DNA from: Clostridiales bacterium
GTDB lineage: Bacteria > Bacillota > Clostridia > Christensenellales > UBA1242
Assembly: GCA_015055745.1 (NCBI GenBank)
Contig: SVHS01000001.1
Span: forward strand, 10,094-74,093
Direction: 5' to 3'
DNA: 64,000 nucleotides
The translations under genes and the position numbers were made by a program. Under the pieces are notes generated by a model that was not told the origin of the DNA, ran no database searches, and saw only the letters and a program-made list of their open reading frames with translations. This document shows, one piece after another, positions 41,911 to 57,108 of this stretch. The first letter of the stretch is position 1; the number at the start of each line of letters is the position of its first letter.

Positions 41911-41938
41911 AAAAAGGACCTCATGTGAGGTCCTTTTT
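41911..41938. terminator. Bidirectional terminator between wzx and res
   Basis: AAAAAGGACCTCATGTGAGGTCCTTTTT, a palindromic stem flanked by A and T runs. Confidence 0.85.
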
Positions 41939-44137: not shown

Positions 44138-45805
44138 TTAACCCTCCATATCTTTGTAGTAATAGTCAGGTATTACGCTTGTTTTGATATTCTTTTTCTT
44201 AAATAAGTCTTCTTGCTCCTTAGTAGGTAGCACATCAAGACCTAAATATATGGCTTTACACTCAGCAGGAATGTGACTAATGAATTCATCTAGCTCTTGA
44301 TCGGTCAATATGATGGCTACTTCGTTACTGGTGTCTATATCTATACCATTTTCTAATTCGATTAACTCTTTTGTGTGTTTCAAAAGCTCATCAGCGTATT
44401 CATAATAAAGCTGGTCTGATATAGGCACAAAATCTACTTTCATATATTTTAGGCTAGCTTTGTAGTCTTCTTCTTGAATAACTCTTTTCACTCTTTCGTA
44501 AGTCACATCTCGGCAAATATTATTTTCATTATTTGTACAGAGTATAAACTTACGATTTCCGTCATCTTCTGCATTAAGTTTCATCACTGCATGTCCAGTC
44601 GTACCACTGCCAGCGAAGAAATCCAATACAATCGCATTTTTTTTGTCAGCGATTACGGCATAAAGGCAGTCATATACGTTCCAAAGAGATTTTGGGAAAT
44701 CAAATGGAGATTCTGGCACAAGATGATTTATGATTTTCTTTCCATATTCATTTGAATCATAGCGAGAATCTATCCATACTGTTCTATAAGTTCCAAATGT
44801 TTTGCCCAATTCTATTTCATAAGTATTTTTATTTTTCTTTACCCTTAATAGATTTTGAATGTTTTCTACAGTTTGTCGAGCATATCTCCACTTTCTTTCT
44901 ATGCCTTTTATATCGATAGGGTAAATATAGTACAAGTCATCTATTTTTTCACATTGCTTTGGATGAATTGCCTCGTCGTATAAGACGTCTCCAAAACCAA
45001 CGATCTTCTCGCCATCTGTAATTATAGGATAAAAACAATTACGAGCATCTGATCTTAAAGATTCTCCACCATTGTCTCTTAGATTTCTCCAATCAATTTC
45101 TTCTTCTGAAATTTTTCTACCACCAATTATCTTTTCACCTTTAGGTATTACAAAATAGGCAAATTCATTTGTGTATGAAAAGTTTTTTCCTTGTATTCCT
45201 CTTGGGTTGTGCACAATAGTGACGCAAACATATTCATATCCTTCGCCAAAAATTTCTTCGAGTAATAATTTTAATGTGGCAACCTCATTTTCATCTATCG
45301 CACATATCAAGACGCCTTTAGGGGTAAGCAATTTTTTACACTTTGCCAATCTTTCACTCATCATGCTAAGCCATTTACTGTGTTTGTACATATCATTTGA
45401 ATCAACATAATCATTATTATATTTCCACGTTTTAGATCCTGTATTATATGGTGGATCAATGTATATTAAGTCGATCGCTCCTTTGTGGGTTTTTTCTAGT
45501 AGATTAAGAGAAGCGAGGTTATCACCTTCGATTAGGAAATTCATTTGCCCGTCATTGTTTATATACAAATCTTTATCTTCTACAAGTATAGGAGTATTGT
45601 TTTCTAAGATTTCATCGATAGCTTCTTTATGCTTTTCGTACACGATACCAAATTTTTTTCCTTTAATATCATTTTTTATATCCGCAATGTATGAAAGAAG
45701 TCTTGACGTATTTTCGTCTTGAGGACTAGCTGTGATAAACTGTTCGATTTGATTTATCTTATTTACGAGACTTTCTCTTTTTTCCTTTGAGATATTAGTA
45801 TCCAT
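44138..45805 (-). CDS. mod: Type III DNA methyltransferase, Mod subunit (beta-class N6A/N4C)
   Basis: Motif IV IYIDPPYNTG lies upstream of motif I LDFFAGSGTTGHA. The mod-then-res order is typical of Type III systems. Confidence 0.88.
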   Translation of the reverse strand: MDTNISKEKRESLVNKINQIEQFITASPQDENTSRLLSYIADIKNDIKGKKFGIVYEKHKEAIDEILENNTPILVEDKDLYINNDGQMNFLIEGDNLASLNLLEKTHKGAIDLIYIDPPYNTGSKTWKYNNDYVDSNDMYKHSKWLSMMSERLAKCKKLLTPKGVLICAIDENEVATLKLLLEEIFGEGYEYVCVTIVHNPRGIQGKNFSYTNEFAYFVIPKGEKIIGGRKISEEEIDWRNLRDNGGESLRSDARNCFYPIITDGEKIVGFGDVLYDEAIHPKQCEKIDDLYYIYPIDIKGIERKWRYARQTVENIQNLLRVKKNKNTYEIELGKTFGTYRTVWIDSRYDSNEYGKKIINHLVPESPFDFPKSLWNVYDCLYAVIADKKNAIVLDFFAGSGTTGHAVMKLNAEDDGNRKFILCTNNENNICRDVTYERVKRVIQEEDYKASLKYMKVDFVPISDQLYYEYADELLKHTKELIELENGIDIDTSNEVAIILTDQELDEFISHIPAECKAIYLGLDVLPTKEQEDLFKKKNIKTSVIPDYYYKDMEG

Positions 45806-46017: not shown

Positions 46018-46063
46018 TGGAGCTGTTACCGGGATTGGAACCCGGGACCTTCCACCTTACCAA
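46018..46063 (-). pseudogene. 3' half of a tRNA-Thr-like gene (anticodon loop to CCA), orphaned
   Basis: The minus strand reads TTGGTAAGGTGG-AAGGTC-CCGGG-TTCCAAT-CCCGG-TAACAGC-T-CCA. No matching 5' half lies adjacent. Confidence 0.7.
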
Positions 46064-46181
46064 CTCGATTTCGGGCTTGTATATGATTAACTACACTCCA
46101 TATTGTGTTTTAATTTTTATATCTTTCAATATCTTGTGTTCAATAATTTTCATTTTGTTCATTTTATGCAGTTTTTTGCGT

Positions 46182-46227
46182 TTTGTATACCAATTTGTAT
46201 ACCAAAAAGTATGCCAAAAGTATGCCA
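46182..46227 (+). repeat. Tandem short repeats: 2 x TTTGTATACCAA, then 2 x AAAGTATGCCA
   Basis: Four consecutive units with 11-12 bp periodicity, read directly. The related core GTATACCA recurs at 56452-56471. Confidence 0.9.
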
Positions 46228-46411
46228 TTTTATAGATGTTTATCGAGGGTTAAGGGTTAAAAATTTAGTAAAATTTTAATATTTTTGAAGGTGGATTTTT
46301 ATACAAATCCACTAATTTTTTATAGCCAAAGAAAGCAATATTGTAAAATATAATGCATTTTTAGATAAAATATGCTATACTTAATATTATAAATTTGGTT
46401 TAGGAGTTTTT

Positions 46412-47482
46412 ATGAATATTAATAAAATAGATGAAACTATAAAACTATACAAAAATTATTTGAGACATAATAATCAATCTAAAAATGATTTTAATGATAG
46501 AAAGGCTAGAATAGCGTATTATCAAAAATTTAATAAAGAAAGTTTTTTAAAAATAACAGAAGAAGATTTTATTGAGTTTATCGGAAAATTGTGGGCTTCT
46601 TCAATGTATGGTAGTAAAAAATATTTAGTAGATCAAATGATATTAAGTAATAAAGGGTTTGACAACTTAAAGTTGATTCTTGCGGATTTTATATATGGAA
46701 AACAAGATTTGTCATCAAGGTGGGATAAATTCCTAAAAGAAGCAAAGTTTTTTGGTCCTTCATATATGAGTGAAATATTGGGGTATATTTATCCAAATGA
46801 TTATGCATTGGCAAACAATCAGGTTATTAAAGCCTTGGATTATCTAGAAATGCCAAAAGTTCCACATTACAACTATCAATTTACTGGTAAAAAATATTTA
46901 GAAATTTGTGATACTGTTAAACATTTAGCAAAAAGACTTGGCGACGCTGGGGTAGATTGTGAAAATCTGCTCGCTGTAGATTATTACTTGTGGGAAGTGA
47001 CAAGATTAACAGCCGATAAATCTTTGAATGAAATTAAGACAGCCGAAAAACCTATAACTAATAAAGAACAGGAGTTTATTCACAAAGAAATAATTGACAA
47101 GATTGTTGAAATTGGTGGATTGCTTGGATTTGAAGCAAAATCTGAAGTTAAAGTTGGAAAAGGTGCAATTGTGGATGCTGTTTGGAGTATAAATATTGGA
47201 AATATGGGTCAAATAATGTATGTTTTTGAAGTCCAAACAAAAGGAAGTATTGATAGTTTGCTTTTAAATTTGCAAAAAGCTAACAATAATAAATCTGTCC
47301 AATCGATAGTGGCGGTTTCGGACGAAGTTCAACTTCAAAAGATTAAAAATGAAAGCGAAGAAATTGATACGCTGAAAGATTTGAAACTGTGGGACTATAA
47401 AGATGTTCTAAATGTTTATGATTCTTTAAATAATGCTATGACTTCTATAAATAAGCTGGGATTGGTGCCAAAAAGCTTTTAG
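46412..47482 (+). CDS. Uncharacterised 356-aa protein; the C-terminal region has a PD-(D/E)xK-like pattern (candidate nuclease)
   Basis: A TAGGAG ribosome-binding site precedes the start. C-terminal ...IVEIGGLLGFEAKSEVKVGKGAIVDAVW...(about 19 aa)...VFEVQTKGSIDSLLLNLQKA. The N-terminal ~200 aa are helical and of no confidently recognised family. Confidence 0.55.
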   Translation: MNINKIDETIKLYKNYLRHNNQSKNDFNDRKARIAYYQKFNKESFLKITEEDFIEFIGKLWASSMYGSKKYLVDQMILSNKGFDNLKLILADFIYGKQDLSSRWDKFLKEAKFFGPSYMSEILGYIYPNDYALANNQVIKALDYLEMPKVPHYNYQFTGKKYLEICDTVKHLAKRLGDAGVDCENLLAVDYYLWEVTRLTADKSLNEIKTAEKPITNKEQEFIHKEIIDKIVEIGGLLGFEAKSEVKVGKGAIVDAVWSINIGNMGQIMYVFEVQTKGSIDSLLLNLQKANNNKSVQSIVAVSDEVQLQKIKNESEEIDTLKDLKLWDYKDVLNVYDSLNNAMTSINKLGLVPKSF

Positions 47483-47531
47483 TAAAATGTGAATAAAATT
47501 TTACTGATTGAGATTTACTGTAAAATATTTT

Positions 47532-47564
47532 AACAAATTTGTTGAAAATGCTTGACAAATTTGT
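47532..47564. promoter_or_regulatory. Two copies of the palindrome ACAAATTTGT, 22 bp centre to centre, overlapping a TTGACA -35 box upstream of the Type I operon
   Basis: AACAAATTTGTT at 47532-47543, ACAAATTTGT at 47555-47564, TTGACA at 47552-47557. Confidence 0.5.
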
Positions 47565-47609
47565 TTTTTTATGCTAGTTTAATTTTGAAAAATAACAAGA
47601 GGAGGGTTT

Positions 47610-48167
47610 ATGCAGCTTAAAGATGTCGCTGAAATTCAATATTCCATACCTGTTGCAACCAAAAAGAAAGAAATAGTGAATGGTAGATGGCTAAATGGAT
47701 CTGGATTGTTAGAAAATAATCAAACAATTACGATTGATACATCGTATGAATATGATTTCAAGTCGGTACTTCAGGTTTCGCAAGATGATTTATTGTTGAA
47801 AAGGATATCTCCAACATTTGTAAATATTTATGAGGATATTCAAAGTGCTTATATAGGCACAAATATTATTCGCATTCGTGTTAAAGAAGAATATGATCCT
47901 TATTTTGTTATGTTGGTTTTGGAAAATCATCTAAAAGAACTTAATGAAAAATCAAATAATGGTACACGCATAAGTGCGATTAATAGGGAATCCTTAGAAA
48001 GTGTTGAAATTCCGAATGTTGAAATTAAACAACAAAAGAGAATAGGAAACTGGATAAAACTAAAATACAAATCAATGCTCCTTCAAGAAGAGCTGCATAA
48101 CAAGATTGCATTAAAAAACAAATTAATAGAAAAACAAATTTTATTAAAAATAAAGGGAGAAAATTAA
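47610..48167 (+). CDS. hsdS: Half-size Type I specificity subunit (one target-recognition domain plus one conserved helical region)
   Basis: 185 aa. LKDVAEIQYS is a TRD-type start. The C-terminal coiled-coil region IKQQKRIGNWIKLKYKSMLLQEELHNKIALKNKLIEKQIL resembles HsdS conserved regions. The gene ends 2 nt before hsdM. Confidence 0.7.
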   Translation: MQLKDVAEIQYSIPVATKKKEIVNGRWLNGSGLLENNQTITIDTSYEYDFKSVLQVSQDDLLLKRISPTFVNIYEDIQSAYIGTNIIRIRVKEEYDPYFVMLVLENHLKELNEKSNNGTRISAINRESLESVEIPNVEIKQQKRIGNWIKLKYKSMLLQEELHNKIALKNKLIEKQILLKIKGEN

Positions 48168-48169
48168 TT

Positions 48170-49768
48170 ATGGAAATTAAGAAAACTACAAAAAGTGATA
48201 TAACTAAGGCTTTATGGGCGGGAGCTGATACATTTAGGGATAATATAGATGCGTCAAACTATAAAGATTACGTTTTGTCAATGCTATTTGTTAAGTATTT
48301 GAGTGATACTTTTAAAGAAAATGTTGACAATTTAAAGAAAGAATATGAAGGTATAAGATTAGAAAGACAAATTCAAAACTTACCTTTTGTATTAAAGGAA
48401 GAAAGCACATTTGACTACTTATATAAAAATAGAAGCAATATCGATATTGGTTCCTTAATTTGTCAAGCACTAACAGAAATTGAAACTTCGAATCCTATTT
48501 TGGCAGGTGTGTTTAGAGGTATAGATTTTAACAGCGAAGCAAATTTGGGTAAGAAAGAACAAAAGAATCCCGTTCTAAGATCTTTGCTAGAAGATTTTGC
48601 AGGTTTAGATTTAAGACCTAGCATGATAGAAACAAAAGAAGGTGAAGTTCCTGCTGATGTTATTGGTGATGCTTATGAATATATGATTGGCGAATTTGCA
48701 ACTATGGCTGGTAAAAAGGCGGGATCATTCTATACTCCACAAGCAGTTTCTGAAATTATGGCTCAAATTGTTGACCCTCAACCTAGAGATAGAGTTTACG
48801 ACCCAACATGTGGATCAGGTTCTTTATTGATTAGGGCAGCTAAAAAGGGTGGTTTAGATAAAGTTTCAATTTACGGACAAGAAAAAAATAATAGTGCAAT
48901 TTCAATGGCTAGAATGAATATGTTTTTGCATGAAATTAAAGATGCTAAAATTGCATGGGGCGATACATTGGCAAATCCTCAACATCTAGATAGTGATGGC
49001 AACTTAATGAAATTTGACTGTATTGTTGCTAATATGCCATTTAGTTTAGATAAGTGGGCAAATGGATTTAATCCTGGCGGTGAAGTGGTCTCAGACGATG
49101 ATGAAAAATCTGCAAAGAAAAAAGTTGAGTTTAAGATGGAACCGGGATTGGATAGATGGCATCGTTTTGATTTGGGTGTTCCTCCTGCAAGTAAAGGTGA
49201 TTGGGCATTCTTACTACATATGATTTACAGCATGAGTGGTGACGGAAGAATTGCGGCAGTTGCACCACATGGGGTTTTGTTTAGAGGTGCAAGTGAGGGA
49301 AAAATTCGTAAAGAAATTATTGATAAGAACCTCATTGATGCTGTTATTGGATTACCTGAAAACTTGTTCTATGGCACAAGCATTCCTGCAAGCATTATTG
49401 TATTTAGAAAGAACAAGACTAATACAGATGTTTTGTTTATTGATGCATCTAAAGATTGCGATAAAGTAAAAGCAAAAAATCAATTAAACGAAGAAACTCA
49501 CGTTAAAACAATTGTAGATACATATCAAGCTTATAAAAATGGTGATTACACTGCGGCAGAAAAAGAAAAATATAGCCATGTTGCAACATTGGAAGAAATT
49601 AAGTCTAATGACTATAACCTAAACATTCCTAGATATGTTGATACTTTTGAAGAAGAACCAGAAATTGATATAAATCAAGTAAATGCTGATATTGCACAAA
49701 TAAAATCTGAACTTGCAGAAGTTGAAAAGCAAATGCAACAATATTTAAAAGAGTTGGGTTTGGAGTAG
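48170..49768 (+). CDS. hsdM: Type I restriction-modification system methyltransferase subunit
   Basis: N-terminal HsdM_N-like region (LWAGADTFRDNIDASNYKDYVLSMLFVKYLSD), motif I DPTCGSGSLL and motif IV NMPFS. Confidence 0.93.
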   Translation: MEIKKTTKSDITKALWAGADTFRDNIDASNYKDYVLSMLFVKYLSDTFKENVDNLKKEYEGIRLERQIQNLPFVLKEESTFDYLYKNRSNIDIGSLICQALTEIETSNPILAGVFRGIDFNSEANLGKKEQKNPVLRSLLEDFAGLDLRPSMIETKEGEVPADVIGDAYEYMIGEFATMAGKKAGSFYTPQAVSEIMAQIVDPQPRDRVYDPTCGSGSLLIRAAKKGGLDKVSIYGQEKNNSAISMARMNMFLHEIKDAKIAWGDTLANPQHLDSDGNLMKFDCIVANMPFSLDKWANGFNPGGEVVSDDDEKSAKKKVEFKMEPGLDRWHRFDLGVPPASKGDWAFLLHMIYSMSGDGRIAAVAPHGVLFRGASEGKIRKEIIDKNLIDAVIGLPENLFYGTSIPASIIVFRKNKTNTDVLFIDASKDCDKVKAKNQLNEETHVKTIVDTYQAYKNGDYTAAEKEKYSHVATLEEIKSNDYNLNIPRYVDTFEEEPEIDINQVNADIAQIKSELAEVEKQMQQYLKELGLE

Positions 49769-49771
49769 ATT

Positions 49772-50452
49772 ATGATAGAATTTGATTATAAAGCAAAAAC
49801 TTACACATGTCCTTATTGTGGAAATAAACAAGCATTTGAATATAATTGTAAAGTTCAATCATGTGGATATAATAGGTCGTGGAGTGTAAGAGGAGATTGG
49901 GTTAAATCTGATGTGAAAGTTTATCACATAGAATGTTCAAATGAAAAATGTAAACAGATGTCTGTAATAGGATTTATTGAATCTGGAAACAGTCAGTTTG
50001 ATATAATCCCAAGTTTTACTTGTAAGACATTTCCTAATTATGTACCTAAACAAATAAGAGATGATTATCAAGAAGCATGCTCAATAATAGAATTGTCTCC
50101 TAAGGCTGCTGCAACGTTGCTAAGAAGATGCCTACAAGGAATGCTTCATGATTTTTGGGATATACATGGAAAAAATTTAAATGCAGAAATAACACAATTA
50201 AAAGATAGGGTATCAACAAGCCAATGGAAGGCAATAGATGGCGTTAGAAGTATTGGAAATATTGGAGCTCACATGGAACAAGACATTAATTTGATTATTG
50301 ATATAGATTTGGGAGAAGCAAAAAAATTACAATCTTTAATCGAACTTTTGGTTGATAAGTGGTATATAAGCAGGCATGATGAAGAGGCCTTGTTTGATGA
50401 TATATCAAATATTTCCGAAGAAAAGGAAAAAGAAAGAAAAGGCGAAAATTAA
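49772..50452 (+). CDS. DUF4145-like protein with an N-terminal Cys-rich (zinc-ribbon-like) region
   Basis: CPYCGNK...CKVQSCG...ECSNEKCKQ, followed by the DUF4145-type core (IRDDYQEACSIIELSPKAAATLLRRCLQGML...IDGVRSIGNIGAHME). Confidence 0.7.
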   Translation: MIEFDYKAKTYTCPYCGNKQAFEYNCKVQSCGYNRSWSVRGDWVKSDVKVYHIECSNEKCKQMSVIGFIESGNSQFDIIPSFTCKTFPNYVPKQIRDDYQEACSIIELSPKAAATLLRRCLQGMLHDFWDIHGKNLNAEITQLKDRVSTSQWKAIDGVRSIGNIGAHMEQDINLIIDIDLGEAKKLQSLIELLVDKWYISRHDEEALFDDISNISEEKEKERKGEN

Positions 50453-50456
50453 ATTT

Positions 50457-51599
50457 ATGGAGAAAATTATGAGAGAGATTCCAGCCGGGTGGCACACTGT
50501 AACATTAAAAGAAGTTTATGATTTCAAAAATGGTTTAAACAAAGAGAAAGAGGCGTTTGGAAAAGGTACACCAATAGTAAATTACATGGATGTGTATAAA
50601 AACTACGAGTTAACTGTTTCAAAGTTAAAAGGCTTAGTTTCTTTAAGCACTAATGAAATACATAACTTTAATGTGAAAAGAGGAGATGTTTTCTTTACTA
50701 GAACTTCTGAAACGATTGAAGAAATAGGTTTTTCTGCAGTGATGAATGACGAGTGTGAAAATGTTGTGTTTAGCGGATTTGTTTTAAGGGCTAGGCCTAA
50801 AAATAATATTATAACTAGCAACTATGCTAAATATTGCTTTTTATCTTGGCCAGTGAGAGAAGAAATAAAAAGAAAAAGTTCATATACAACTAGAGCTTTA
50901 ACAAGTGGAAAGATGTTGGGTGATGTGGAAGTTGTTTTACCTAAAACAGCAGAAGAACAAGATAGAATTGTTTCCATATTAGATTGCTGGGCGAAGGCTA
51001 TTGCATTGCAAGAGAACAAAATTAAGAAGTTGGAAGAAAAGAAAAAAGCTCTTATGCAAAAACTTTTAAAACCTAAAGAAGATTGGAAATCATTTAAACT
51101 TGGCGATGCATGTGAAATAAAAACTGGTAAACTTGATGCAAATCAGATGGAAAATAATGGTAAATATCCGTTTTTTACATGTTCAAAAGAAATATATGCT
51201 ATTAATAATTATGCTTTTGATTGTGAAGCTCTCTTAATGGCGGGGAATGGAGAAATTGGGGATATTAAATATTATAACGGCAAATTTAATGCTTATCAAA
51301 GAACCTATGTGTTGTCAAATTTTAAATTTAATATAAAATATGTAATGTTTTACTTATTGCATAATTTTGATAAATCTGTGTGTAAGGGTGTTCAAAAAAG
51401 CTCTATGCCGTATATAAAATTGGAATTATTGAGCAATGCTATAATTTATTATCCACAGAACTACGATAAGATAGTAAAATTATTTGATACGATAGAGTCA
51501 AAATTGCAGAAACAAAAAGATTTATTAAACAATTATAAATTACAACAAAAAGCTTTAATGCAAAAATTATTAACAGGAAAGGTAAGAGTTAATGGATAA
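50457..51599 (+). CDS. hsdS: Type I specificity subunit, full length (two target-recognition domains)
   Basis: The start was moved to the ATG at 50457 (the tracked ORF start at 50376 overlaps the upstream gene). TRD1 is WHTVTLKEVYDFKNG... with central conserved region EEQDRIVSILDCWAKAIALQENKIKKLEEKKKALMQKLL. TRD2 is FKLGDACEIKTGKLD... with distal region LQKQKDLLNNYKLQQKALMQKLLTGKVRV. Confidence 0.9.
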   Translation: MEKIMREIPAGWHTVTLKEVYDFKNGLNKEKEAFGKGTPIVNYMDVYKNYELTVSKLKGLVSLSTNEIHNFNVKRGDVFFTRTSETIEEIGFSAVMNDECENVVFSGFVLRARPKNNIITSNYAKYCFLSWPVREEIKRKSSYTTRALTSGKMLGDVEVVLPKTAEEQDRIVSILDCWAKAIALQENKIKKLEEKKKALMQKLLKPKEDWKSFKLGDACEIKTGKLDANQMENNGKYPFFTCSKEIYAINNYAFDCEALLMAGNGEIGDIKYYNGKFNAYQRTYVLSNFKFNIKYVMFYLLHNFDKSVCKGVQKSSMPYIKLELLSNAIIYYPQNYDKIVKLFDTIESKLQKQKDLLNNYKLQQKALMQKLLTGKVRVNG

Positions 51600-52407
51600 T
51601 TTGGGTGTTATTTCAATTGCTGTTGCTGCGGTTTCTTGTTTAATTTCTTTATTTAGTTATTTTAATAATAGAAATAAAGAGTATATTGAAAAGCTTGATG
51701 CATGGAGAAATAATTTTAGCAATAAGATCAATAATTTCTTAGAATTTTGTGGAGAAAATAATGCTTTTGCGTTTAAATTTGATTATTCTAATAGCTTAAT
51801 GTTTAATTTCAATTCAAAAAAGGATTCAGAGCAGTATAATGCTTATGTAAAATCAATTGTTGTACAAAGAGATAAACTTAATACCTTGTATCAAGAAGCA
51901 AATGCTGTTATACATATATCTTTCGATGAAAAAGATGAAAATCAACTTTTAATTGAGAAAATGATTAATGAATTGTTTTTATGTATGGACAACCACTTGT
52001 CATACATCTTAGATTTGAACGATACTAGAGAAAAGTTCTTTTGTAATATGCTAAGAGAAAAAGATGTTATGGATTTATTGAATGAAATGTTCGATAATAT
52101 AAAGAATTTAACATTATTGCATCGTTCAATATCAAGGCTGAAGAATGAAACAGTAAACAGTATAGATTTAAACTTAATAAACAATAGAAATATTTTAAAT
52201 TTTTCAACTAAAAAACTATTAAAGTTAATGGTTAATAATCTTAATAGTTTTGATGAGTTTAAGTTTTATAATAGTAAAAACAATGATGGGTTGAAAAAAG
52301 AATTTTGTGAATGGTTAGTTAGATTTGAAAAAGAGATAGATACAAACAAAGAAGAAATTTTAAGTATATTAAAATGTGCTAAACGAAATTTTCAAAGAGG
52401 TATATAA
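51592..52407 (+). CDS. Uncharacterised membrane-anchored 271-aa protein embedded between hsdS and hsdR
   Basis: The start overlaps the hsdS stop by 8 nt, and the stop overlaps the hsdR ATG (ATAATGA). N-terminal TM helix LGVISIAVAAVSCLISLFSYF. The remainder is Asn/Lys-rich and helical, with no family recognised. Confidence 0.6.
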   Translation: MDNLGVISIAVAAVSCLISLFSYFNNRNKEYIEKLDAWRNNFSNKINNFLEFCGENNAFAFKFDYSNSLMFNFNSKKDSEQYNAYVKSIVVQRDKLNTLYQEANAVIHISFDEKDENQLLIEKMINELFLCMDNHLSYILDLNDTREKFFCNMLREKDVMDLLNEMFDNIKNLTLLHRSISRLKNETVNSIDLNLINNRNILNFSTKKLLKLMVNNLNSFDEFKFYNSKNNDGLKKEFCEWLVRFEKEIDTNKEEILSILKCAKRNFQRGI

Positions 52408-55400
52408 TGAAACATACGATATTTAATGAAAGACCTGAATGTCAAGACAGGTTAATAAAAGTTTTAGTTGGATTGGGGTATAAATATATATCTAGATCTG
52501 AAGCCGAAGAAAAAAGAGGAAACTTAAAAAATGTTTTATTTGTCGATGAACTGACAAAGTTTTTAAGCATGCAAACTTATAAGTATAAAAACACTAAATA
52601 TCGTTTTTCTGGCGAGTCTATTGTTAATGCTACAAGAGCAATTGATGCATCTCTTTTGCAAGGTTTGTCAATGGCTACTAAAGAAATATATAATCTGTTG
52701 ACTTTAGGTATTAGCGTTGAGGAAACTGTTGGCGTGGATAAAGATATGCCTATTAAGCAATCGTTTGATTTGCACTTTATAGATTTTGATCATCCGGAAA
52801 ACAATATTTGGCAAGTTACAGAAGAGTTTTCTGTTGAAAGAAATAATGGACAGTTTGCAAGACCTGATATTGTTATTATGGTTAATGGTATTCCATTAGC
52901 AGTTATTGAATGTAAGAAATCAAGTGTTGATGTAAAAGAAGGAATTAATCAAAATGTAAGAAACATGTTGCCTGACTATATACCGAATTTGTTTAAGTTT
53001 AGTCAGTTGGTTTTTGCTGTCAATCCAAATAAAGTGAAATATGGAACTTGTGGTACAGGTGCAGATTATTTTGTTGAATGGAGAGAAGATAAAGACTTAT
53101 TAAATTGGCAAAAAGATGTGTGTGAAAGAATTGTTCCTGATAAGCAAATTTTAGAGCAAGATAAAATTGCTGTATCAATGTTATCACAAAAAAGATTTTT
53201 AGATTTAATAAACAACTATATTTTATTTGATGGAAATATTAAAAAGGTTGCAAGACATCAACAATTTTTTGCTGTTAATAAGGCAATGGATAGATTGAAT
53301 GGTGTTGATAATGTTGATGCTGAAGGCGGTGTTATTTGGCATACCCAAGGAAGCGGCAAATCTCTTACAATGGTTATGCTTGTAAAAAAGATTTTAAAAG
53401 GAAAAGCTTCAGATAATCCCAGATTTGTTATTGTTACAGATAGAATAGATTTAGATAAACAAATTAAAGATAATTTTGCCAAAACGGCAATGAATCCGGT
53501 TAGAGCTGGAACTGGTAAAGGACTCAAAGCTTTGCTTAAAGATAAAAGTAATATTATTATAACCACACTGATTAATAAATTTGAAACTGTTATAAAGAAT
53601 AGATATATTGAACAAAGTTCTGATAATGTATATGTCTTAATTGATGAAGCACATCGTAGTAATTATAGTGCTATGTACAATTACATGAAAGAAGTTTTAC
53701 CTCACTCTAAAATGATTGCATTTACAGGAACTCCATTAATTGCAAATCAAGACAAAAATACTATTAAGAAGTTTGGTGATTTAATTCACAGTTATACAAT
53801 GAAGAGAGCAATAGAAGATGGGATTACTGTCCCGTTGGTTTATGAAGGAAGAAAGGTTGTACAAAATGACCCAACAAAAACTATTGATAATTATTTTGAA
53901 AGCCTAACAACTGGTTTATTGGAAGAACAAAAGAAGGAATTAAAAGAAAAATTTAGCAAGTTTAAAAGGTTGGCAGAGGCTACAAGTAGAATTAACTTAT
54001 TGGCTTTCGATATTTGTGATCATTTTAGATCTTATTGTTTACCAAAAGGATTAAAAGCAATGGTTGTTTGTTCGTCAAGAGCTGCAGCTGTTGAAATGTT
54101 TGAAATCATTAAACAAAATAGTCGTGGAGATATACAACCAGCAGTTTGTATTTCTTTTGGTGCAAATGATGAAGATGAGGAAAATATTACAAATAGTGAT
54201 TTAAAGAAAATAAACAATTATCATAAAACATATGTTGAAAAGTTATTTGGAAATAACGATGAAAGGTATGATGAATCAATAACAGATAGATTTAAGAATC
54301 CGGAAGGTGATGTCAATATGTTGATAGTAAAAGACAAGCTTTTGACAGGTTTTGATGCGCCAGTTGCAGGAGTTCTTTATGTAGATAAGCCAATTCAACA
54401 ACATTCATTGTTACAAGCTATTGCTAGGGTTAACCGTGTATATAAAGGTAAAGATTTTGGTTTAATAGTTGACTATTGGGGAATATTCACAAAGTTAAAT
54501 AAAGCTATCGATATGTATGACGATGCTGAGTCTGGTTTTAATCAATTTGATAAAAGTGATATTGAAGATACCATATTTGGTGCTGTTGATGAAAAGAATA
54601 ATCTAGAAAAAAGTTATTCTACTTTAAAAGAATTCTTTACATTATCAGAGAACGCTACAAGTAATGAATGGCAAGAATACTTAAAAGAAGAGGCTGTAAG
54701 AAAAGAATTTTATGAAAAACTTAAAGATTTTGAAAAAAGATTGTTTTTGGCTTTATCTAATAGAAGTATTTTTGTTGAGGTTGGTATTGATAAAATAGAA
54801 TTTTACAAAAACAAATGGTTGTTCTTTAAAAAATTGAGAGAAGCGGTTTCAATGCGTTATGATGAGGTTTCAGATTTTGCGAAATATGAAGAAGGAATGA
54901 AGAATCTAATAAATACATTTGTCAATGCTACCGATGTTGTGACGGTGGTTAAACCAGTGTCAATTGGTGATGAAAAAGGTATGGAAGATGCTATTAAACA
55001 AATGGATTCTAAAGCAGCAAAAGCAGACTTTATTAAAACTAGAATTGAAGCCAGGTTAAAACAGGCTAGATATGAAGATCCATTATTGTTTGAAGAATTT
55101 TCGGATAAAATTAAAAAAACATTAGCGGAATATGAAATATCAAGAAATGCAGATGTGTATTTAACTGAAATGGAAGAGATGGCAAACGATATTAGGAATG
55201 GTATTACAACAAAAGAATATCCTTCTTCTATTAAATCAGATACTGATGCTAAAGTTTTCTATGGTTCAATAGTCAATAGGATAACTAAGACTGTTGGGAA
55301 GATAAGTTTGAATCAGGAAGAAATGGTTGCTGATTTTGCTATCAAAATTAAAGAGGCAATAATAGATAATACAAAAAGAGATTGGAAATATAATGAATCG

Positions 55401-55547
55401 GTTCATAAGCAAATACACAGAGTATTAGATGATATAATTTTTGATTTGTTTGATGAATTGTTGATTGATACAAATAAAGAAGAAAATATTGATATTATTG
55501 ACTTAATAGAAGATGATATTATGAAGGCTGCAGTTGTGAGGTATTAA
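52407..55547 (+). CDS. hsdR: Type I restriction enzyme, R subunit
   Basis: N-terminal PD-(D/E)xK (RPDIVIMVNGIPLAVIECKK), helicase motif I TQGSGKSLTM, motif II IDEAHRS, later QAIARVNR. Confidence 0.95.
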   Translation: MKHTIFNERPECQDRLIKVLVGLGYKYISRSEAEEKRGNLKNVLFVDELTKFLSMQTYKYKNTKYRFSGESIVNATRAIDASLLQGLSMATKEIYNLLTLGISVEETVGVDKDMPIKQSFDLHFIDFDHPENNIWQVTEEFSVERNNGQFARPDIVIMVNGIPLAVIECKKSSVDVKEGINQNVRNMLPDYIPNLFKFSQLVFAVNPNKVKYGTCGTGADYFVEWREDKDLLNWQKDVCERIVPDKQILEQDKIAVSMLSQKRFLDLINNYILFDGNIKKVARHQQFFAVNKAMDRLNGVDNVDAEGGVIWHTQGSGKSLTMVMLVKKILKGKASDNPRFVIVTDRIDLDKQIKDNFAKTAMNPVRAGTGKGLKALLKDKSNIIITTLINKFETVIKNRYIEQSSDNVYVLIDEAHRSNYSAMYNYMKEVLPHSKMIAFTGTPLIANQDKNTIKKFGDLIHSYTMKRAIEDGITVPLVYEGRKVVQNDPTKTIDNYFESLTTGLLEEQKKELKEKFSKFKRLAEATSRINLLAFDICDHFRSYCLPKGLKAMVVCSSRAAAVEMFEIIKQNSRGDIQPAVCISFGANDEDEENITNSDLKKINNYHKTYVEKLFGNNDERYDESITDRFKNPEGDVNMLIVKDKLLTGFDAPVAGVLYVDKPIQQHSLLQAIARVNRVYKGKDFGLIVDYWGIFTKLNKAIDMYDDAESGFNQFDKSDIEDTIFGAVDEKNNLEKSYSTLKEFFTLSENATSNEWQEYLKEEAVRKEFYEKLKDFEKRLFLALSNRSIFVEVGIDKIEFYKNKWLFFKKLREAVSMRYDEVSDFAKYEEGMKNLINTFVNATDVVTVVKPVSIGDEKGMEDAIKQMDSKAAKADFIKTRIEARLKQARYEDPLLFEEFSDKIKKTLAEYEISRNADVYLTEMEEMANDIRNGITTKEYPSSIKSDTDAKVFYGSIVNRITKTVGKISLNQEEMVADFAIKIKEAIIDNTKRDWKYNESVHKQIHRVLDDIIFDLFDELLIDTNKEENIDIIDLIEDDIMKAAVVRY

Positions 55548-56272
55548 TGATAAAAAGTAAATTAGAGCTTGGTAAAATAAACGGGGATATTTATGTTCTA
55601 ATTGAAAAAAAAGATATAAAAAATGTTCACTTGAAAGTATTTAGGGATTTGTCAGTAAAATTATCGGTGCCTAATAAAGTTCCGGATGATTGGATAATAT
55701 CTTTTTTAGAGAAGAAAAAGGAATGGATAAATAAACAGATATTTAAGTATAAACAGTCTTCAGGATCTAACAATATGGTATACTTAAAAAATGGTTGTTC
55801 GATTCAAATGTTGGGTAAAGATTTCCGAATATATATAAAATCAGGTAAAAAGAAAATTGTAAAAGAAGAGAAAAAACTTATTATATATCTTGAGGATGTT
55901 TCTGATTTGGAAACAGCTACAAAAATTTTTGATGATTGGTGGAAGAAAGAATCTAAGATATTATATGAAGTCAAAGTGAAAGAGTTTTATAATTCTATAT
56001 TTAAAAAATATAAAATAAATATTCCAACAATTCAAATTAGAAAAATGAAGACAATGTGGGGTAATTGTTGTCCGCAAAAGTCGTTAATCACTTTAAATAA
56101 TTATTTGTTCAAAGCTAATACTTTAGGTATAGAATATGTGATTATGCACGAAATGGCACATCTTTTATATCCAAAGCATAATGAAAATTTTTATTCATTC
56201 ATGACTATTCATATGCCTGATTGGAAAGAAAGAAAGCAAATTTTGGATTTGGATGTCGTTCAGGGAGTTTAA
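55547..56272 (+). CDS. DUF45/YgjP-like (M48-related, SprT-like) zinc metallopeptidase
   Basis: WGNCCPQKSLITLN plus HExxH (VIMHEMAHLLYPKH). The ATG overlaps the hsdR stop (TAATGA). Confidence 0.8.
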   Translation: MIKSKLELGKINGDIYVLIEKKDIKNVHLKVFRDLSVKLSVPNKVPDDWIISFLEKKKEWINKQIFKYKQSSGSNNMVYLKNGCSIQMLGKDFRIYIKSGKKKIVKEEKKLIIYLEDVSDLETATKIFDDWWKKESKILYEVKVKEFYNSIFKKYKINIPTIQIRKMKTMWGNCCPQKSLITLNNYLFKANTLGIEYVIMHEMAHLLYPKHNENFYSFMTIHMPDWKERKQILDLDVVQGV

Positions 56273-56279
56273 AAAAATA

Positions 56280-56302
56280 CGAACCTTTTTGGTTCGTTTT
56301 TT
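56280..56302. terminator. Hairpin terminator between the Type I operon and the tRNA 3' end
   Basis: CGAACC-TTTTT-GGTTCG flanked by A and T runs. Confidence 0.75.
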
Positions 56303-56378
56303 TGGAGCTAATGACGGGAATCGAACCCGTGACCTCCACCTTACCGGAGTGGTGCTCTACCTACTGAGCTACATTAGC
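56303..56378 (-). tRNA. tRNA-Thr(GGU)-like, 76 nt with encoded CCA; the anticodon loop reads CCGGTAA
   Basis: The minus strand reads GCTAATG-TA-GCTC-AGTAGGTA-GAGC-A-CCACT-CCGGTAA-GGTGG-AGGTC-ACGGG-TTCGATT-CCCGT-CATTAGC-T-CCA. It folds by eye into a clean cloverleaf, but positions 32 and 33 are both C. Confidence 0.75.
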
Positions 56379-56444
56379 ATATACGTGATTTTAGGCTGTT
56401 TTTGAGTTTTTGGGGTAAATTTTTTACTTTGATTTTACATTTTT

Positions 56445-56471
56445 TGGTATAGTATACCAGTGTGTATACCA
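56445..56471. repeat. TGGTATA-G-TATACCA palindrome plus a second GTATACCA 12 bp downstream
   Basis: GTATACCA at 56452-56459 and 56464-56471. Same core and periodicity as the array at 46182-46227. Confidence 0.85.
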
Positions 56472-56567
56472 CTGTTGATAAGAACTATATATAGCGGCGA
56501 GCCAATAAAACCGTCTATATATTGTGGTCAAAATACGGTTAATGTAAGGGTTTAATACGCTTTTTCA

Positions 56568-56609
56568 GGCCTTACCAAGGCAGCCCTCTACCTACTGAGG
56601 TACATCAGC
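56568..56609 (-). pseudogene. 5' half of a tRNA-Thr(GGU) gene (acceptor 5' strand to anticodon loop), orphaned
   Basis: The minus strand reads GCTGATG-TA-CCTC-AGTAGGTA-GAGG-G-CTGCC-TTGGTAA-GGcc. tRNA-like sequence then stops. Confidence 0.7.
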
Positions 56610-56844
56610 GTGATGAAATTTTAGGTGATTTTTAAGATATGGATTTTGGCACTTTTTATTTACCAGGGTAGTGCGATACCTCTGCTAAAATAGCAAATTA
56701 AACCGCAATGACAGTTAGATAATACCAACAAATTTTAAAATAGTCAATAGATTTAAAAATATTTTATAACTTAATAAAAAACATTTGCCAAAAAGGAATA
56801 AAAAGTTTATAATAACAGTATCTTAATATAAAAGGAGAAAGGTT

Positions 56845-57075
56845 ATGAAAGGAATGGTTAAATGGTTTGAAAATGCTCCATTGTGGCTAAAAGTTATCTT
56901 CGCTCTTCCTGGATTGGATATCATCTGGGCTATCTTCCGTATCGTGAAAGGTGCGGCTTATGGAAAGACTGGTCTTGTCCTTGTAGGTATTCTATGGTTA
57001 TTACTAGGTTGGGCTATCCTTTGGATTATTGACATTGTTTCTATTCTCATTAAGAAACATCCTATTCTTGCTTAG
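56845..57075 (+). CDS. Small membrane protein (76 aa, 2-3 TM helices)
   Basis: AAAGGAGAAAGG ribosome-binding site. Hydrophobic, Trp-rich helices (LWLKVIFALPGLDIIWAIF, LVLVGILWLLLGWAILWIIDIVSILI). Confidence 0.55.
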   Translation: MKGMVKWFENAPLWLKVIFALPGLDIIWAIFRIVKGAAYGKTGLVLVGILWLLLGWAILWIIDIVSILIKKHPILA

Positions 57076-57091
57076 TGCAGAAAATGAAAAA

Positions 57092-57108
57092 ACTGACTAT
57101 TTGTCAGT
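57092..57108. terminator. Bidirectional terminator hairpin
   Basis: ACTGAC-TATTT-GTCAGT flanked by A and T runs. It overlaps the stop of the RSH gene. Confidence 0.7.

What the first reader, a model, noticed from the sequence alone, without database searches (positions are those of the whole stretch)
46018..56609. tRNA-Thr gene apparently split in its anticodon loop by a ~10.5 kb island flanked by a 9-bp direct repeat
Minus strand 56609->56568 reads GCTGATGTACCTCAGTAGGTAGAGGGCTGCCTTGGTAAGGCC. That is the acceptor 5' strand, D arm, anticodon stem and loop (TTGGTAA, anticodon GGU) of a tRNA-Thr; tRNA-like sequence then stops. About 10.5 kb to the left, minus strand 46063->46018 reads TTGGTAAGGTGGAAGGTCCCGGGTTCCAATCCCGGTAACAGCTCCA, which is the rest of the anticodon arm, the T arm, the acceptor 3' strand and CCA. 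The two halves share TTGGTAAGG (plus strand CCTTACCAA at 46055-46063 and 56570-56578), as expected for an att core duplicated by site-specific integration. Joined, they pair by eye as a cloverleaf: 6 of 7 acceptor pairs, and an anticodon stem with two G-U pairs. The 3' half shows decay (T loop TTCCAAT, one extra variable-loop base). The insert carries an intact tRNA-Thr-like gene, an unknown candidate nuclease and a seven-gene Type I R-M operon. I see no integrase, excisionase or transposase ORF, so the element is either decayed or mobilised in trans. The ~90 bp upstream of the orphan 5' half (56610-56700) also looks like a diverged copy of the region upstream of the intact tRNA (56379-56470). 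An alternative origin is therefore homologous replacement between paralogous tRNA units.
Basis: partly seen in the sequence, partly recalled or inferred. Interest (0 to 1): 0.7.

Follow-up and report, generated by a model that had tools for sequence, protein, structure and literature searches.

The report
Defence island that overwrites tRNA-Thr gene
A 10.5 kb restriction-modification island has inserted into the anticodon loop of a threonine tRNA gene without repairing it and supplies its own replacement tRNA; related gut bacteria show repeated insertions of this kind, which leave stacks of dead tRNA 5' halves.

Summary
An orphan tRNA-Thr(GGU) 5' half (56609..56569, minus strand) and a 3' fragment (46063..46018) flank a low-GC 10.5 kb island. 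The island carries an intact tRNA-Thr(GGU), a Type I R-M operon and no integrase.

A same-species metagenome contig (L036, 100% identical flank) has the uninterrupted tRNA. Its identity to the window ends exactly at the anticodon loop. A third allele (L033) has a different insertion at the same nucleotide.

- The 3' fragment is not the matching half. It differs from the intact allele at 11 of 48 aligned columns and is closest to another tRNA type.
- An older, decayed 5' half lies at 56694..56660.
- The event belongs to a family. Four species show intact and occupied alleles, and about 40 orphan 5' halves in 10 spacer classes all end 0-4 nt after TTGGTAA.

In relatives the inserted DNA is spacer, new tRNA-Thr and defence cargo, and in several cases also a tyrosine integrase (with MobL in one).

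The closest known mechanism is "tRNA-dependent lysogeny" of actinobacteriophages. Here it occurs in non-phage defence islands and happens repeatedly at one site. I rate it a new variant of a known kind. The window copy is an integrase-less member, probably moved in trans.

The parts
56719..56747 (-). Sigma-70-like promoter (TTGACT-17-TATTAT, with TG) upstream of the first, oldest tRNA position. It is probably the resident promoter of the locus.
   Evidence: Consensus scan only. The position is conserved in same-species contigs.
56660..56694 (-). Older, decayed orphan 5' half of a tRNA-Thr, ending in CTGGTAA. It is the scar of an earlier insertion.
   Evidence: It aligns with a well-kept half in L021 (A3). 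On its own it is not significant in the covariance model (7.8 bits). Same-species contigs L034 and L038 end at 56664 and L035 at 56673.
56610..56659 (-). Spacer/leader ('E type') that came in with the tRNA now represented by the orphan half.
   Evidence: Homologous to the spacer in the same position in L021.
56569..56609 (-). Orphan 5' half of tRNA-Thr(GGU): positions 1-38 plus GGC. This is the attL side.
   Evidence: 36.0 bits together with the next part. It is identical to the 5' part of the intact tRNA in L036. Identity ends at 56569 for L036 and at 56570 for L033; contig L037 starts at 56569.
56572..56578 (-). Core TTGGTAA (the anticodon loop) at the left junction.
   Evidence: It is the only block shared by all junction classes.
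56534..56568 (-). Start of the element's left arm. It looks like a vestigial, decayed tRNA 3' half, with CATTAAC at the acceptor position.
   Evidence: Shuffle test 0-7 of 2000 in the three copies of this element type. Rfam 19.1 bits over 56537-56609. R1 alignment.
56379..56533 (-). Rest of the left arm, with two direct TGGTATAC repeats (56452-56459 and 56464-56471) plus an inverted partial copy. These are candidate arm-type integrase sites. The leader of the replacement tRNA also lies here.
   Evidence: 14 TGGYATAC in the window against 3.0 expected. 82-86% identical to L013 and L021.
56303..56378 (-). Intact replacement tRNA-Thr(GGU) carried by the element. Its anticodon loop reads CCGGTAA (C32, C33) instead of TTGGTAA.
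   Evidence: ARAGORN; Rfam 70.9 bits; R1 97.7 bits. Identical to the tRNA in L021.
56279..56297 (.). Bidirectional terminator hairpin between the tRNA and the convergent cargo operon.
47610..56272 (+). Cargo, a Type I R-M operon: half-size hsdS (47610-48167), hsdM (48170-49768), DUF4145/PD-T7-4 (49772-50452), hsdS (50376-51599), unknown 271 aa (51592-52407), hsdR (52407-55547) and a YgjP-like metallopeptidase (55547-56272).
   Evidence: Pfam; PADLOC.
46412..47482 (+). Cargo ORF of 356 aa, function unknown. It is not a recognisable recombinase.
   Evidence: No hit in Pfam, PADLOC, NCBIfam, PHROGs or PDB sequences. No homologue in the L021 copy of the element.
46064..46320 (-). Conserved non-coding right arm of the element, with four direct TGGYATAC repeats (46185-46227).
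   Evidence: 87% identical to L021 17602-17907 over 306 bp and nearly identical over the last ~230 bp, although the hosts' RelA proteins are only 67% identical.
46057..46063 (-). Core TTGGTAA at the right junction (attR).
46018..46056 (-). Displaced tRNA-Thr 3' fragment (anticodon-stem 3' strand, T arm, acceptor 3' strand, CCA). It comes from a tRNA type other than the orphan half.
   Evidence: R1 27.7 bits, E 7e-6. 40/46 identical to L002/L004-type 3' halves against 36/46 to the L036 type. Similarity to L021 ends at the CCA.

Best explanation
Window 46064-56571 is an integrase-less member of a family of integrative islands found in Onthoplasma-like gut Clostridia.

Proposed mechanism:
- A tyrosine integrase recombines the island's attP with the 7-bp anticodon loop (TTGGTAA) of the resident tRNA-Thr(GGU) gene.
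- Unlike classical tRNA islands, the island does not rebuild the gene at the junction. In this island type the 3' half in attP has decayed to a vestige.
- Instead the island carries a complete, promoter-equipped tRNA-Thr(GGU) 41-190 bp inside its left end. This copy takes over the function.
- The old 5' half is left as a dead stub just upstream. The old 3' part is displaced to the far end.
- Because the new tRNA sits at almost the same place, it becomes the next target. Repeated insertions stack 5' halves.
- Loss of older cargo removes most 3' fragments. The likely route is recombination between the new tRNA's 3' part and the displaced fragment.
- Cargo is mainly anti-phage defence; in the window it is Type I R-M plus PD-T7-4.

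Shown: the anatomy, the empty and occupied alleles, the recurrent breakpoint, the conserved ends with swapped cargo, and integrases in sister elements.

Inferred: catalysis by those integrases, mobilisation of the window copy in trans, complementation by the carried tRNA, and the route of cargo loss.
For: 1. Allelic states in four species, with 99.6-100% identical flanks that break at the anticodon loop or, for the P0103 species, with a shared upstream promoter region:
- window against L036 (intact) and L033 (a different insert);
- L040/L042 against L043/L041;
- L076/L079 against L075;
- the P0103 species, L053 (tRNA reads as uninterrupted up to the contig end) against L051/L052/L057/L058.

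2. About 40 orphan 5' halves but only 3 orphan 3' fragments in 1.08 Mb of related loci. There are ten spacer classes, each joined to several different halves, and all junctions lie 0-4 nt after TTGGTAA.

3. In the occupied alleles the inserted DNA begins with a spacer and a new tRNA-Thr. In L040, L058, L060 and L076 a tyrosine integrase lies within about 1.3 kb of that tRNA. These integrases have Phage_int_SAM_3, Phage_int_M and Phage_integrase domains and are 45-98% identical to each other. An Xis-like ORF accompanies the integrase in L040 and L060, and an 86-aa ORF and a MobL relaxase accompany it in L076.

4. The window element's two ends are 82-95% identical to those in L021 and L013, whose RelA proteins are 67% and 79% identical to the window's. 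The cargo differs and similarity stops exactly at the tRNA's CCA and at the right core.

5. TGGYATAC repeats lie in both arms, laid out like arm-type sites.

6. All 13 distinct intact tRNA variants keep a perfect cloverleaf: 273 of 273 cells are paired and 14 of 21 pairs covary. The carried copies are therefore under selection as tRNAs.

7. The island is compositionally foreign.

8. There is a published precedent for the principle: tRNA-dependent lysogeny (PMC10865867).
Against: - No integrase is present in the window, and the rest of the genome could not be searched. Mobility of this particular copy is therefore inferred.
- No excised circle or attP junction was found. The one metagenome scan gave only a chance hit, and five viral-contig scans and the phage and plasmid BLAST searches gave nothing.
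- The 3' fragment does not match the orphan half, so at least one extra event has to be assumed. This could be an earlier resident tRNA, a 3'-half swap by a classical element such as the one in L050, or deletion between fragments.
- Integrases of this family at about 50% identity also sit at another tRNA (L069). Homology alone does not prove target specificity.
- All comparison data are metagenome contigs or MAGs. Short repeats can break or misjoin assemblies, although the same arrays recur in independent assemblies from JGI, ENA, Logan and NCBI.
- Whether tRNA-Thr(GGU) is single-copy or essential here is unknown.
Confidence: 0.75

Rival explanations
1. Simple single insertion. One tRNA-Thr was cut once, and the orphan 5' half and the 3' fragment are its two halves. 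The fragment has since decayed.
For: The shared TTGGTAAGG at both junctions, 6/7 acceptor pairs, and the ARAGORN call on the chimera. The breakpoint is confirmed by the empty allele L036.
Against: The same-species intact allele has a 3' half that differs from the fragment at 11 of 48 aligned columns, while the 5' half and 1.37 kb of flank are 100% identical. The fragment keeps a perfectly compensated T stem (CCGGG/CCCGG) and is closest to L002/L004-type tRNAs. That pattern fits a different functional tRNA, not random decay. L036's downstream DNA is absent from the 46 kb to the left. An older half at 56694..56660 shows more than one event.
Confidence: 0.12
2. Classical tRNA island. The intact tRNA at 56378..56303 is the regenerated target (attL), the island supplied its 3' half, and the fragment at 46063..46018 is the displaced original 3' end. 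The orphan 5' half would then be an unrelated older pseudogene.
For: The layout of tRNA, island and 3' fragment in direct orientation is the textbook one (Islander definition, PMC4383910). GGTAAGGTGGA is shared by the intact tRNA and the fragment. A classical-looking case exists in a relative: L050 has an intact tRNA, a same-type 3' fragment and no 5' half.
Against: Same-species alleles diverge at the orphan half's loop, not inside the intact tRNA. The spacer plus intact tRNA travels as one conserved module with the right arm in three lineages. The intact tRNA's loop is CCGGTAA while both junction cores are TTGGTAA, so the crossover did not take place in that tRNA.
Confidence: 0.08
3. No site-specific recombinase is involved. 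Tandem duplication, unequal crossing-over or homologous replacement between paralogous tRNA units created the truncated copies.
For: Some arrays hold identical units with a fixed period, which unequal crossing-over could amplify: L060 has 3 x 80 bp, and L008 and L052 have about 100 bp units. Homologous recombination probably does contribute to cargo loss.
Against: Breakpoints fall within 4 nt of one another in about 40 halves joined to ten unrelated spacer sequences. The inserted DNA carries integrases in several alleles. Both arms hold ordered repeat motifs.
Confidence: 0.04
4. The 5' halves are functional products, for example decoy or regulatory tRNA-half RNAs or leader elements, kept by selection rather than being scars.
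For: They lie between a promoter-like site and the live tRNA and may be co-transcribed. Many are perfectly conserved copies.
Against: Older halves visibly decay: window 56694..56660, L003, L004 and L016. The number of halves varies from 0 to 3 among strains of one species. Intact alleles without any half exist (L036 has only the decayed remnant; L041, L075 and L007 have none).
Confidence: 0.02

Closest known systems
tRNA-dependent lysogeny of actinobacteriophages (Fionnbharth and other Cluster K4/L phages; Guerrero-Bustamante & Hatfull, mBio 2024, PMC10865867)
   Same: A tyrosine-integrase attP shares only a short core (~10 bp there, 7-9 bp here) with an attB inside a host tRNA gene. The tRNA is not rebuilt at the junction. 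[quoted passage not shown] Sister elements with related integrases use the classical long-core mode at the same site (Boilgate there, L050-like here). Putative arm-type sites flank the core.
   Different: The elements here are not phages. No phage genes are seen, and there are no matches in phage collections or IMG/VR. Cargo is defence systems, one element carries a MobL relaxase, and many copies lack an integrase. The replacement tRNA sits 41-190 bp from the core rather than elsewhere in the genome. It therefore re-creates the target in place, and insertions repeat, leaving arrays of 5' halves, which that paper does not describe in the parts I read. The target is tRNA-Thr(GGU), and tRNA-Ile(GAU) in L069, in Clostridia. 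The requirement for the carried tRNA has not been tested here.
Classical tRNA/tmRNA-integrating genomic islands (Islander definition, PMC4383910; anticodon-loop sublocation class of Williams 2002, cited from my own knowledge)
   Same: Tyrosine-integrase family. The crossover lies in the 7-nt anticodon loop flanked by the symmetric stem. A displaced 3' fragment marks the far end. Island growth occurs next to a tRNA.
   Different: [quoted passage not shown] The junction product is a pseudo-tRNA (19 bits in Rfam, below the 29-bit threshold). A separate full gene is supplied instead, so orphan 5' halves accumulate, which classical integration does not produce.
Tycheposons of Prochlorococcus (bioRxiv 10.1101/2020.12.28.424599)
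   Same: Integrase-carrying elements specific to particular tRNAs. New arrivals push older ones further into the island. Degenerate elements and partial tRNAs build a variable island. Cargo includes defence and niche genes.
   Different: Tycheposons are flanked by partial tRNA copies in the classical way and the proximal tRNA is kept. Stacks of 5' halves and carried full tRNA genes do not appear in the passages I searched. The host phylum and integrase lineage differ.
CIMEs and accretion-mobilisation of ICESt-type elements in streptococci (cited from my own knowledge: Pavlovic et al. 2004; Bellanger et al. 2011)
   Same: An element bounded by functional-looking att sites that lacks its own recombination genes, presumably mobilised when a related integrase-bearing element is present. 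Tandem accretion occurs at one site.
   Different: Those elements integrate at the 3' end of a protein-coding gene (fda). They do not carry a replacement for the target. Mobilisation in trans has not been shown for the window element.

Membership tests
Classical tRNA-integrating genomic island (Islander criteria) | Integration splits a tRNA gene site-specifically | tested here: met
   The same-species intact allele L036 and the alternative allele L033 diverge from the window at 56569/56570, at the 3' edge of the anticodon loop.
Classical tRNA-integrating genomic island (Islander criteria) | Island sequence restores a functional tRNA at the junction | tested here: not met
   The junction product 56609..56534 scores 19.1 bits in Rfam (threshold 29) and 36 bits against 97.7 bits for the real gene in the clade model. 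Its T arm is destroyed.
Classical tRNA-integrating genomic island (Islander criteria) | A displaced tRNA fragment marks the other end | tested here: met
   The 3' fragment 46063..46018 scores 27.7 bits, E 7e-6. It is of a different tRNA type from the orphan half.
Classical tRNA-integrating genomic island (Islander criteria) | A tyrosine integrase is encoded in the island | tested here: not met
   None in the island or in the 64 kb window. Present in sister elements L040, L058, L060 and L076.
tRNA-dependent-lysogeny-type integration (PMC10865867) | [quoted passage not shown] | tested here: met
   The common block is TTGGTAA plus 0-4 nt across 10 junction classes. It is TTGGTAAGG in the window.
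tRNA-dependent-lysogeny-type integration (PMC10865867) | [quoted passage not shown] | tested here: met
   tRNA-Thr(GGU) at 56378..56303 lies inside the inserted DNA. The same holds in every occupied allele examined.
tRNA-dependent-lysogeny-type integration (PMC10865867) | Recombination is catalysed by an element-encoded tyrosine integrase with arm-type sites | tested here: inconclusive
   The integrase is absent from the window copy. Related copies encode one. TGGYATAC repeats lie in both arms. There is no biochemical test.
tRNA-dependent-lysogeny-type integration (PMC10865867) | The element is a temperate phage | tested here: not met
   No phage structural genes among the island ORFs. No match in 50,697 phage records or IMG/VR. 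One sister element carries a MobL relaxase.
tRNA-dependent-lysogeny-type integration (PMC10865867) | The carried tRNA is required for viability of the integrant | not testable with these tools
   This needs genetics and the full tRNA gene set of the genome. Indirect evidence only: all 13 carried or terminal tRNA variants keep a perfect cloverleaf with 14 covarying pairs.
Cis-mobilisable element (CIME-like, integrase-less, att-flanked) | Flanked by both att junctions of an integrase-bearing element family but lacking recombination genes | tested here: met
   Both arms and both cores are present, and no integrase is found. L021 carries the same arms, also without an integrase inside.
Cis-mobilisable element (CIME-like, integrase-less, att-flanked) | Mobilised in trans by a related element | not testable with these tools
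   Suggested only by the 87-95% identity of the arms across hosts with 67% RelA identity and by strain-level presence and absence.
Integron-type cassette array | A fixed platform integrase with attI and promoterless cassettes bounded by attC | tested here: not met
   There is no platform integrase next to the array. Units are bounded by tRNA halves, and the integrase, when present, is inside a unit.

The most novel reading that the evidence does not exclude
These islands compete for a single tRNA slot. Each newcomer destroys the resident tRNA-Thr copy and makes the cell depend on the copy it brings, which is an addiction-like hold. The row of 5' halves is then a chronological record of past invasions.

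The island type in this window may have gone one step further. Its tRNA has CC instead of TT at loop positions 32-33, exactly within the crossover core. That change would make it refractory to being overwritten by rivals, acting as a 'lock'. This tRNA type is the terminal copy in all three lineages that have it. It is never seen as an orphan half among about 40 halves.

The same overwrite strategy also appears at tRNA-Ile(GAU) next to a related integrase (L069). This would point to a wider, undescribed class of mobilisable defence islands in gut Clostridia.
Probability: 0.25. Interest if true: 0.8.

Novelty: new variant of a known kind. Interest (0 to 1): 0.64.

Why it matters
Genomic-island finders and tRNA annotators assume that an island rebuilds its tRNA target and that only 3' fragments are left behind. 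In this case that assumption fails, so such tools would mis-delimit the island.

The finding extends 'tRNA-dependent' integration, published in 2024 for actinobacteriophages, to non-phage and partly integrase-less defence islands of uncultured gut Clostridia. It also shows a consequence not noted before. Because the replacement gene recreates the target in place, insertions repeat, and the stubs give a readable order of events.

The locus is polymorphic within species in metagenomes. It is therefore a live hotspot of defence-system turnover, with R-M, PD-T7-4, Gabija-like, Hachiman, AbiE, reverse-transcriptase and other cargo.

If the loop-mutant tRNA really blocks further insertion, it would be an example of competition between mobile elements acted out on an essential host gene. 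It would also be a functional bacterial elongator tRNA without U33.

Tried and rejected
Searches that found nothing useful:
No further metagenome scan was allowed afterwards.
- Five viral-contig scans (right junction, TGGYATAC array, three spacer types) found nothing.
- BLAST of the right arm against phages found nothing. Against plasmids it found only the tRNA-like 44 nt.
- Looking up the Type III Mod protein to find alternative contexts for the 3' fragment returned only the same arrangement.
- One look-up (P0021) failed because the server did not answer.
It has no hit in Pfam, PADLOC, NCBIfam, PHROGs or PDB, and the L021 copy of the element lacks it. I therefore treat it as cargo.

Tests that did not discriminate:
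- ARAGORN on the joined halves, because intact-5' plus fragment-3' is also called a tRNA.
- Matching the fragment to the older half: acceptor pairing is only 5/7 by eye, so the fragment's original partner remains unassigned.

Ideas considered and rejected:
- That the halves are DNA copies of anticodon-nuclease cleavage products. They end after position 38-42, not at the wobble base, and each is fused to an element spacer.
- That contig ends at the cores prove polymorphism. Repeats alone can break assemblies, so I rely on L036, L033, L043, L041, L075 and L053, which read through or into the alternative allele.

Full report
**1. What is in the window**

On the minus strand, reading from relA (57097-58923) towards lower coordinates, the features are as follows.
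- A conserved 76-aa membrane-protein gene on the opposite strand (56845-57075).
- A promoter-like site (56747..56719).
- A decayed tRNA 5' half (56694..56660) and a 50-nt spacer.
- A well-preserved tRNA-Thr 5' half (56609..56569) ending in the anticodon loop TTGGTAA plus GGC.
- A 190-nt spacer.
- An intact tRNA-Thr(GGU) (56378..56303; ARAGORN; Rfam 70.9 bits) and a terminator hairpin.
- A convergent block of cargo genes (46412-56272).
- A 257-nt non-coding stretch (46320..46064).
- TTGGTAA followed by a tRNA 3' fragment ending in CCA (46063..46018).
- A Type III R-M pair (mod 44138-45805, res 41938-44136).

The cargo is a Type I R-M operon: hsdM, two hsdS genes (one half-size), hsdR and a YgjP-like peptidase. 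It has an embedded DUF4145/PD-T7-4 gene and two unknown ORFs.

**2. Are the pieces tRNA-derived?**

I built a covariance model from 13 distinct intact tRNA-Thr(GGU) genes of this clade and ran it over all 64 kb with filters off.
- Intact gene: 97.7 bits.
- Orphan half plus the sequence after it: 36.0 bits (E 3e-8).
- 3' fragment: 27.7 bits (E 7e-6).
- Older half: 7.8 bits, not significant alone.
- No other fragment is found anywhere in the window.

Rfam's general tRNA model gives the orphan region 19.1 bits, below its 29-bit threshold, and does not report the 3' fragment. I also confirm that no integrase is present in the window: tblastn with three related integrases gives a best E of 0.99. 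The segment 46064-56571 has the lowest GC (0.296 against 0.347) and the most deviant tetranucleotide profile of all 10.5 kb windows.

**3. The empty site exists in the same species**

I looked up the exact 76-aa protein and recovered 10 contigs of the same species.
- Three contigs (L030-L032) repeat the window.
- L036 is 100% identical to window 56569-57940. It then continues into a complete tRNA-Thr(GGU), made of the orphan 5' half plus TTGGTAAGGCAGATGCCACGGGTTCGATCCCCGTCATCAGCTCCA. Different DNA follows it.
- L033 is 99.97% identical down to 56570. It then continues with another spacer, another 5' half and a further spacer.
- Other contigs stop at 56569, 56588, 56664 and 56673, that is, at the two cores.

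This species therefore has at least three alleles that diverge at the same nucleotide, the 3' edge of the anticodon loop.

**4. The 3' fragment is not the other half**

- L036's 3' half and the window fragment agree at only 37 of 48 aligned columns, although the 5' half and 1.37 kb of flank are identical.
- The fragment is closer to the 3' halves of L002/L004-type tRNAs (40/46) than to the L036 type (36/46).
- It keeps a perfectly compensated T stem, which random decay would not give.
- L036's downstream DNA is absent from the window.
- In the 13 intact variants every one of 273 stem positions pairs, and 14 of 21 pairs covary. The orphan-plus-fragment chimera has one mismatch and three G-U pairs.

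The fragment is therefore a genuine attR-side relic of a different resident tRNA. More than one event is needed to explain the locus. The older half at 56694..56660, which aligns with a well-kept half in L021, points the same way.

**5. A family, not a one-off**

A scan of one genome per GTDB species with RelA returned 28 loci from Candidatus Onthoplasma and related uncultured Clostridia.
- Ten of these loci have a tRNA-Thr(GGU) downstream of relA, and most of those carry 1-3 orphan 5' halves directly upstream of it.
- Three further look-ups of homologues of the 76-aa protein gave three more species with several alleles each.
- In 1.08 Mb of loci, profile searches find 32 intact copies and about 40 orphan 5' halves. 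They find 2 orphan Thr 3' fragments (L021, L050); the window's fragment, detected only by the covariance model, makes 3. Many contigs are redundant, and most loci hold little downstream DNA.
- The junction table shows ten unrelated spacer classes. Each is joined to several different halves, and every junction lies 0-4 nt after TTGGTAA. The only sequence common to all junctions is the 7-nt anticodon loop, which is the size of a tyrosine-recombinase overlap region.

**6. Same-species intact and occupied pairs**

- L043 and L041 (intact) against L040 and L042 (half, 41-nt spacer, new tRNA). Identity between L040 and L043 is 99.96% up to the core.
- L075 (intact) against L076 and L079. Identity is 99.64% and breaks at TTGGTAAG.
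- In the P0103 species, L053 reads as an uninterrupted tRNA up to its contig end. L051 has one half, L057 and L058 have two, and L052 has three.

In L040, L058, L060 and L076 the DNA just beyond the new tRNA encodes a convergent tyrosine integrase with Phage_int_SAM_3, Phage_int_M and Phage_integrase domains.
- L040 and L060 also have an 85-aa Xis-like ORF, and L040 has a weakly Rep-like ORF. L076 has an 86-aa ORF and a MobL relaxase.
- The integrases form two subgroups. L040, L060 and L062 are 65-98% identical to each other. L058 and L076 are 70% identical. Identity between the subgroups is about 45%.
- A truncated relative lies 2.7 kb beyond the 3' fragment in L021.

**7. The window element as a module**

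- Its left module (spacer plus tRNA) is 86% identical to L021 and 82% identical to L013.
- Its right arm is 87% identical to L021 over 306 bp and nearly identical over the last ~230 bp.
- The hosts' RelA proteins are only 67% (L021) and 79% (L013) identical to the window's.
- Similarity stops exactly at the tRNA's CCA on one side and at the end of the 3' fragment on the other.
- The cargo between the ends differs. The window has Type I R-M and PD-T7-4. L021 has a methyltransferase, a specificity subunit and a MazE-like protein. L013 has an SDH-type protease and an hsdS.
- Both arms carry TGGYATAC repeats: four direct copies at 46185-46227, and two direct copies plus an inverted partial copy at 56452-56471. 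The window holds 14 copies against 3.0 expected. This is the layout of arm-type integrase sites in a lambda-like attP. Similar (T/C)GGCATA repeats occur in the long spacers of L052 and L058.
- The first 38 nt of this spacer type retain significant similarity to a tRNA 3' half (0-7 of 2000 shuffles in the three copies). This suggests an attP that was once classical and decayed after the element acquired a whole tRNA gene, one of the routes discussed for phages in PMC10865867.

**8. Mechanism**

My best account is that a tyrosine integrase recombines attP with the anticodon loop of the resident tRNA-Thr(GGU). The gene is not rebuilt. The element's own tRNA, 41-190 bp inside the left end, replaces it and becomes the next target. 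The window copy has both arms and cores but no integrase, so it is a cis-mobilisable member.

The excess of 5' halves over 3' fragments needs an explanation. In the P0103 species the ~315 bp after the tRNA are shared by alleles with different tRNAs and different cargo. L050's displaced fragment carries the same downstream sequence. Recombination between the new tRNA's 3' part and the displaced fragment would delete cargo and leave one more half-plus-spacer scar. This step is inferred, not shown.

**9. Cargo**

Cargo across the family is mostly anti-phage defence:
- R-M systems of several types;
- AbiEii;
- a DUF2326/CTD12 pair (Pfam describes CTD12 as a domain of ABC-three-component systems);
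- a reverse transcriptase;
- an OLD-TOPRIM ATPase with a UvrD helicase (Gabija-like);
- HamA with a helicase (Hachiman);
- Abi_C;
- DUF2290 with a helicase.

**10. Comparison with what is known**

- The principle of a short core, no reconstruction and a carried tRNA of the same isotype is 'tRNA-dependent lysogeny', shown experimentally for mycobacteriophages in 2024 and suspected for a Lactobacillus prophage.
- The differences here are: non-phage islands, some mobilisable and many integrase-less; defence cargo; a different phylum and a different tRNA; and a replacement tRNA placed right next to the core. That placement makes the process repeat and leaves arrays of 5' halves.
- Classical tRNA islands (Islander) and tycheposons share the island-growth logic but restore the tRNA.
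- I found no paper describing stacks of orphan 5' tRNA halves. The literature tool does not cover subscription journals, and Williams 2002 could not be read.

**11. Verdict**

The kind of system is known, and this is a new variant of it.

The main uncertainties are:
- whether the window copy is still mobile;
- which enzyme moves it;
- the exact history of the 3' fragment;
- reliance on metagenome assemblies, although the same structures recur in independent assemblies.

Noticed in passing
window 56340-56346 (minus strand, anticodon loop of the intact tRNA); also L013 8018-8093 and L021 14368-14443: The carried tRNA-Thr(GGU) has the loop CCGGUAA, so position 33 is C instead of the almost universal U33. 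The two changed bases lie in the crossover core TTGGTAA. This tRNA type is always the terminal live copy and never appears as an orphan half.
   Followed up: partly
L069 14031-14412 (minus strand): The same architecture occurs at another tRNA. Two orphan 5' halves of tRNA-Ile(GAU), each cut right after the loop CTGATAA and followed by a spacer, precede an intact tRNA-Ile. AbiEii, HipA, a related integrase (49% identical to the L040 integrase), MobL and a Type I R-M lie 4-13 kb downstream.
   Followed up: partly
window 41938-44136 (Type III res); L066 7726-9867, L068 2627-4236: Same-species metagenome contigs carry different inactivating changes in the Type III res gene. L066 has a stop and a 1-nt deletion near the start. 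L068 has a 1-nt deletion in GGCC. The mod gene is identical in all of them. This suggests population-level loss of restriction with methylation kept.
   Followed up: partly
window 30317-33883 compared with L002, L003, L013, L040, L060: In most relatives the tRNA array lies directly upstream of a divergent aspS-asnS pair. In the window these two synthetase genes (31160-32482 and 32498-33883) lie 23 kb downstream of the tRNA, beyond the Type III R-M and an 8 kb glycosyltransferase cluster. The conserved aspS leader (30870-31065) is not followed by any tRNA remnant. The rearrangement is unexplained.
   Followed up: partly
window 49772-50452 and 47610-48167: A DUF4145 gene matching the PADLOC candidate defence family PD-T7-4 is embedded between hsdM and hsdS. 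It overlaps hsdS by 77 nt. A half-size hsdS precedes hsdM.
   Followed up: no
L060 12654-12851; L008 18700-18937; L052 277-513: Some arrays hold identical half-plus-spacer units at a fixed period: 3 x 80 bp in L060, and about 100 bp units in L008 and L052. They could arise from repeated insertion of the same element type or from unequal crossing-over.
   Followed up: no
L075-L079, e.g. L075 6967-7010 (plus strand): About 145 nt upstream of the array, on the opposite strand, all alleles of this species carry GCTTTGCC-TTGGTAA-GGCAGAGG followed by GTATACCATAC. This is a perfect Thr-GGU-type anticodon stem-loop in inverted orientation next to an arm-repeat-like motif. Its origin is unknown.
   Followed up: no
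L050 192-2937: One allele of the P0103 species looks like a classical insertion at the same site. It has an intact tRNA with no 5' half, a 2.6 kb island, and then a same-type 3' fragment followed by the resident downstream sequence. Classical and overwrite modes therefore seem to coexist, as they do for Boilgate and Fionnbharth in PMC10865867.
   Followed up: partly
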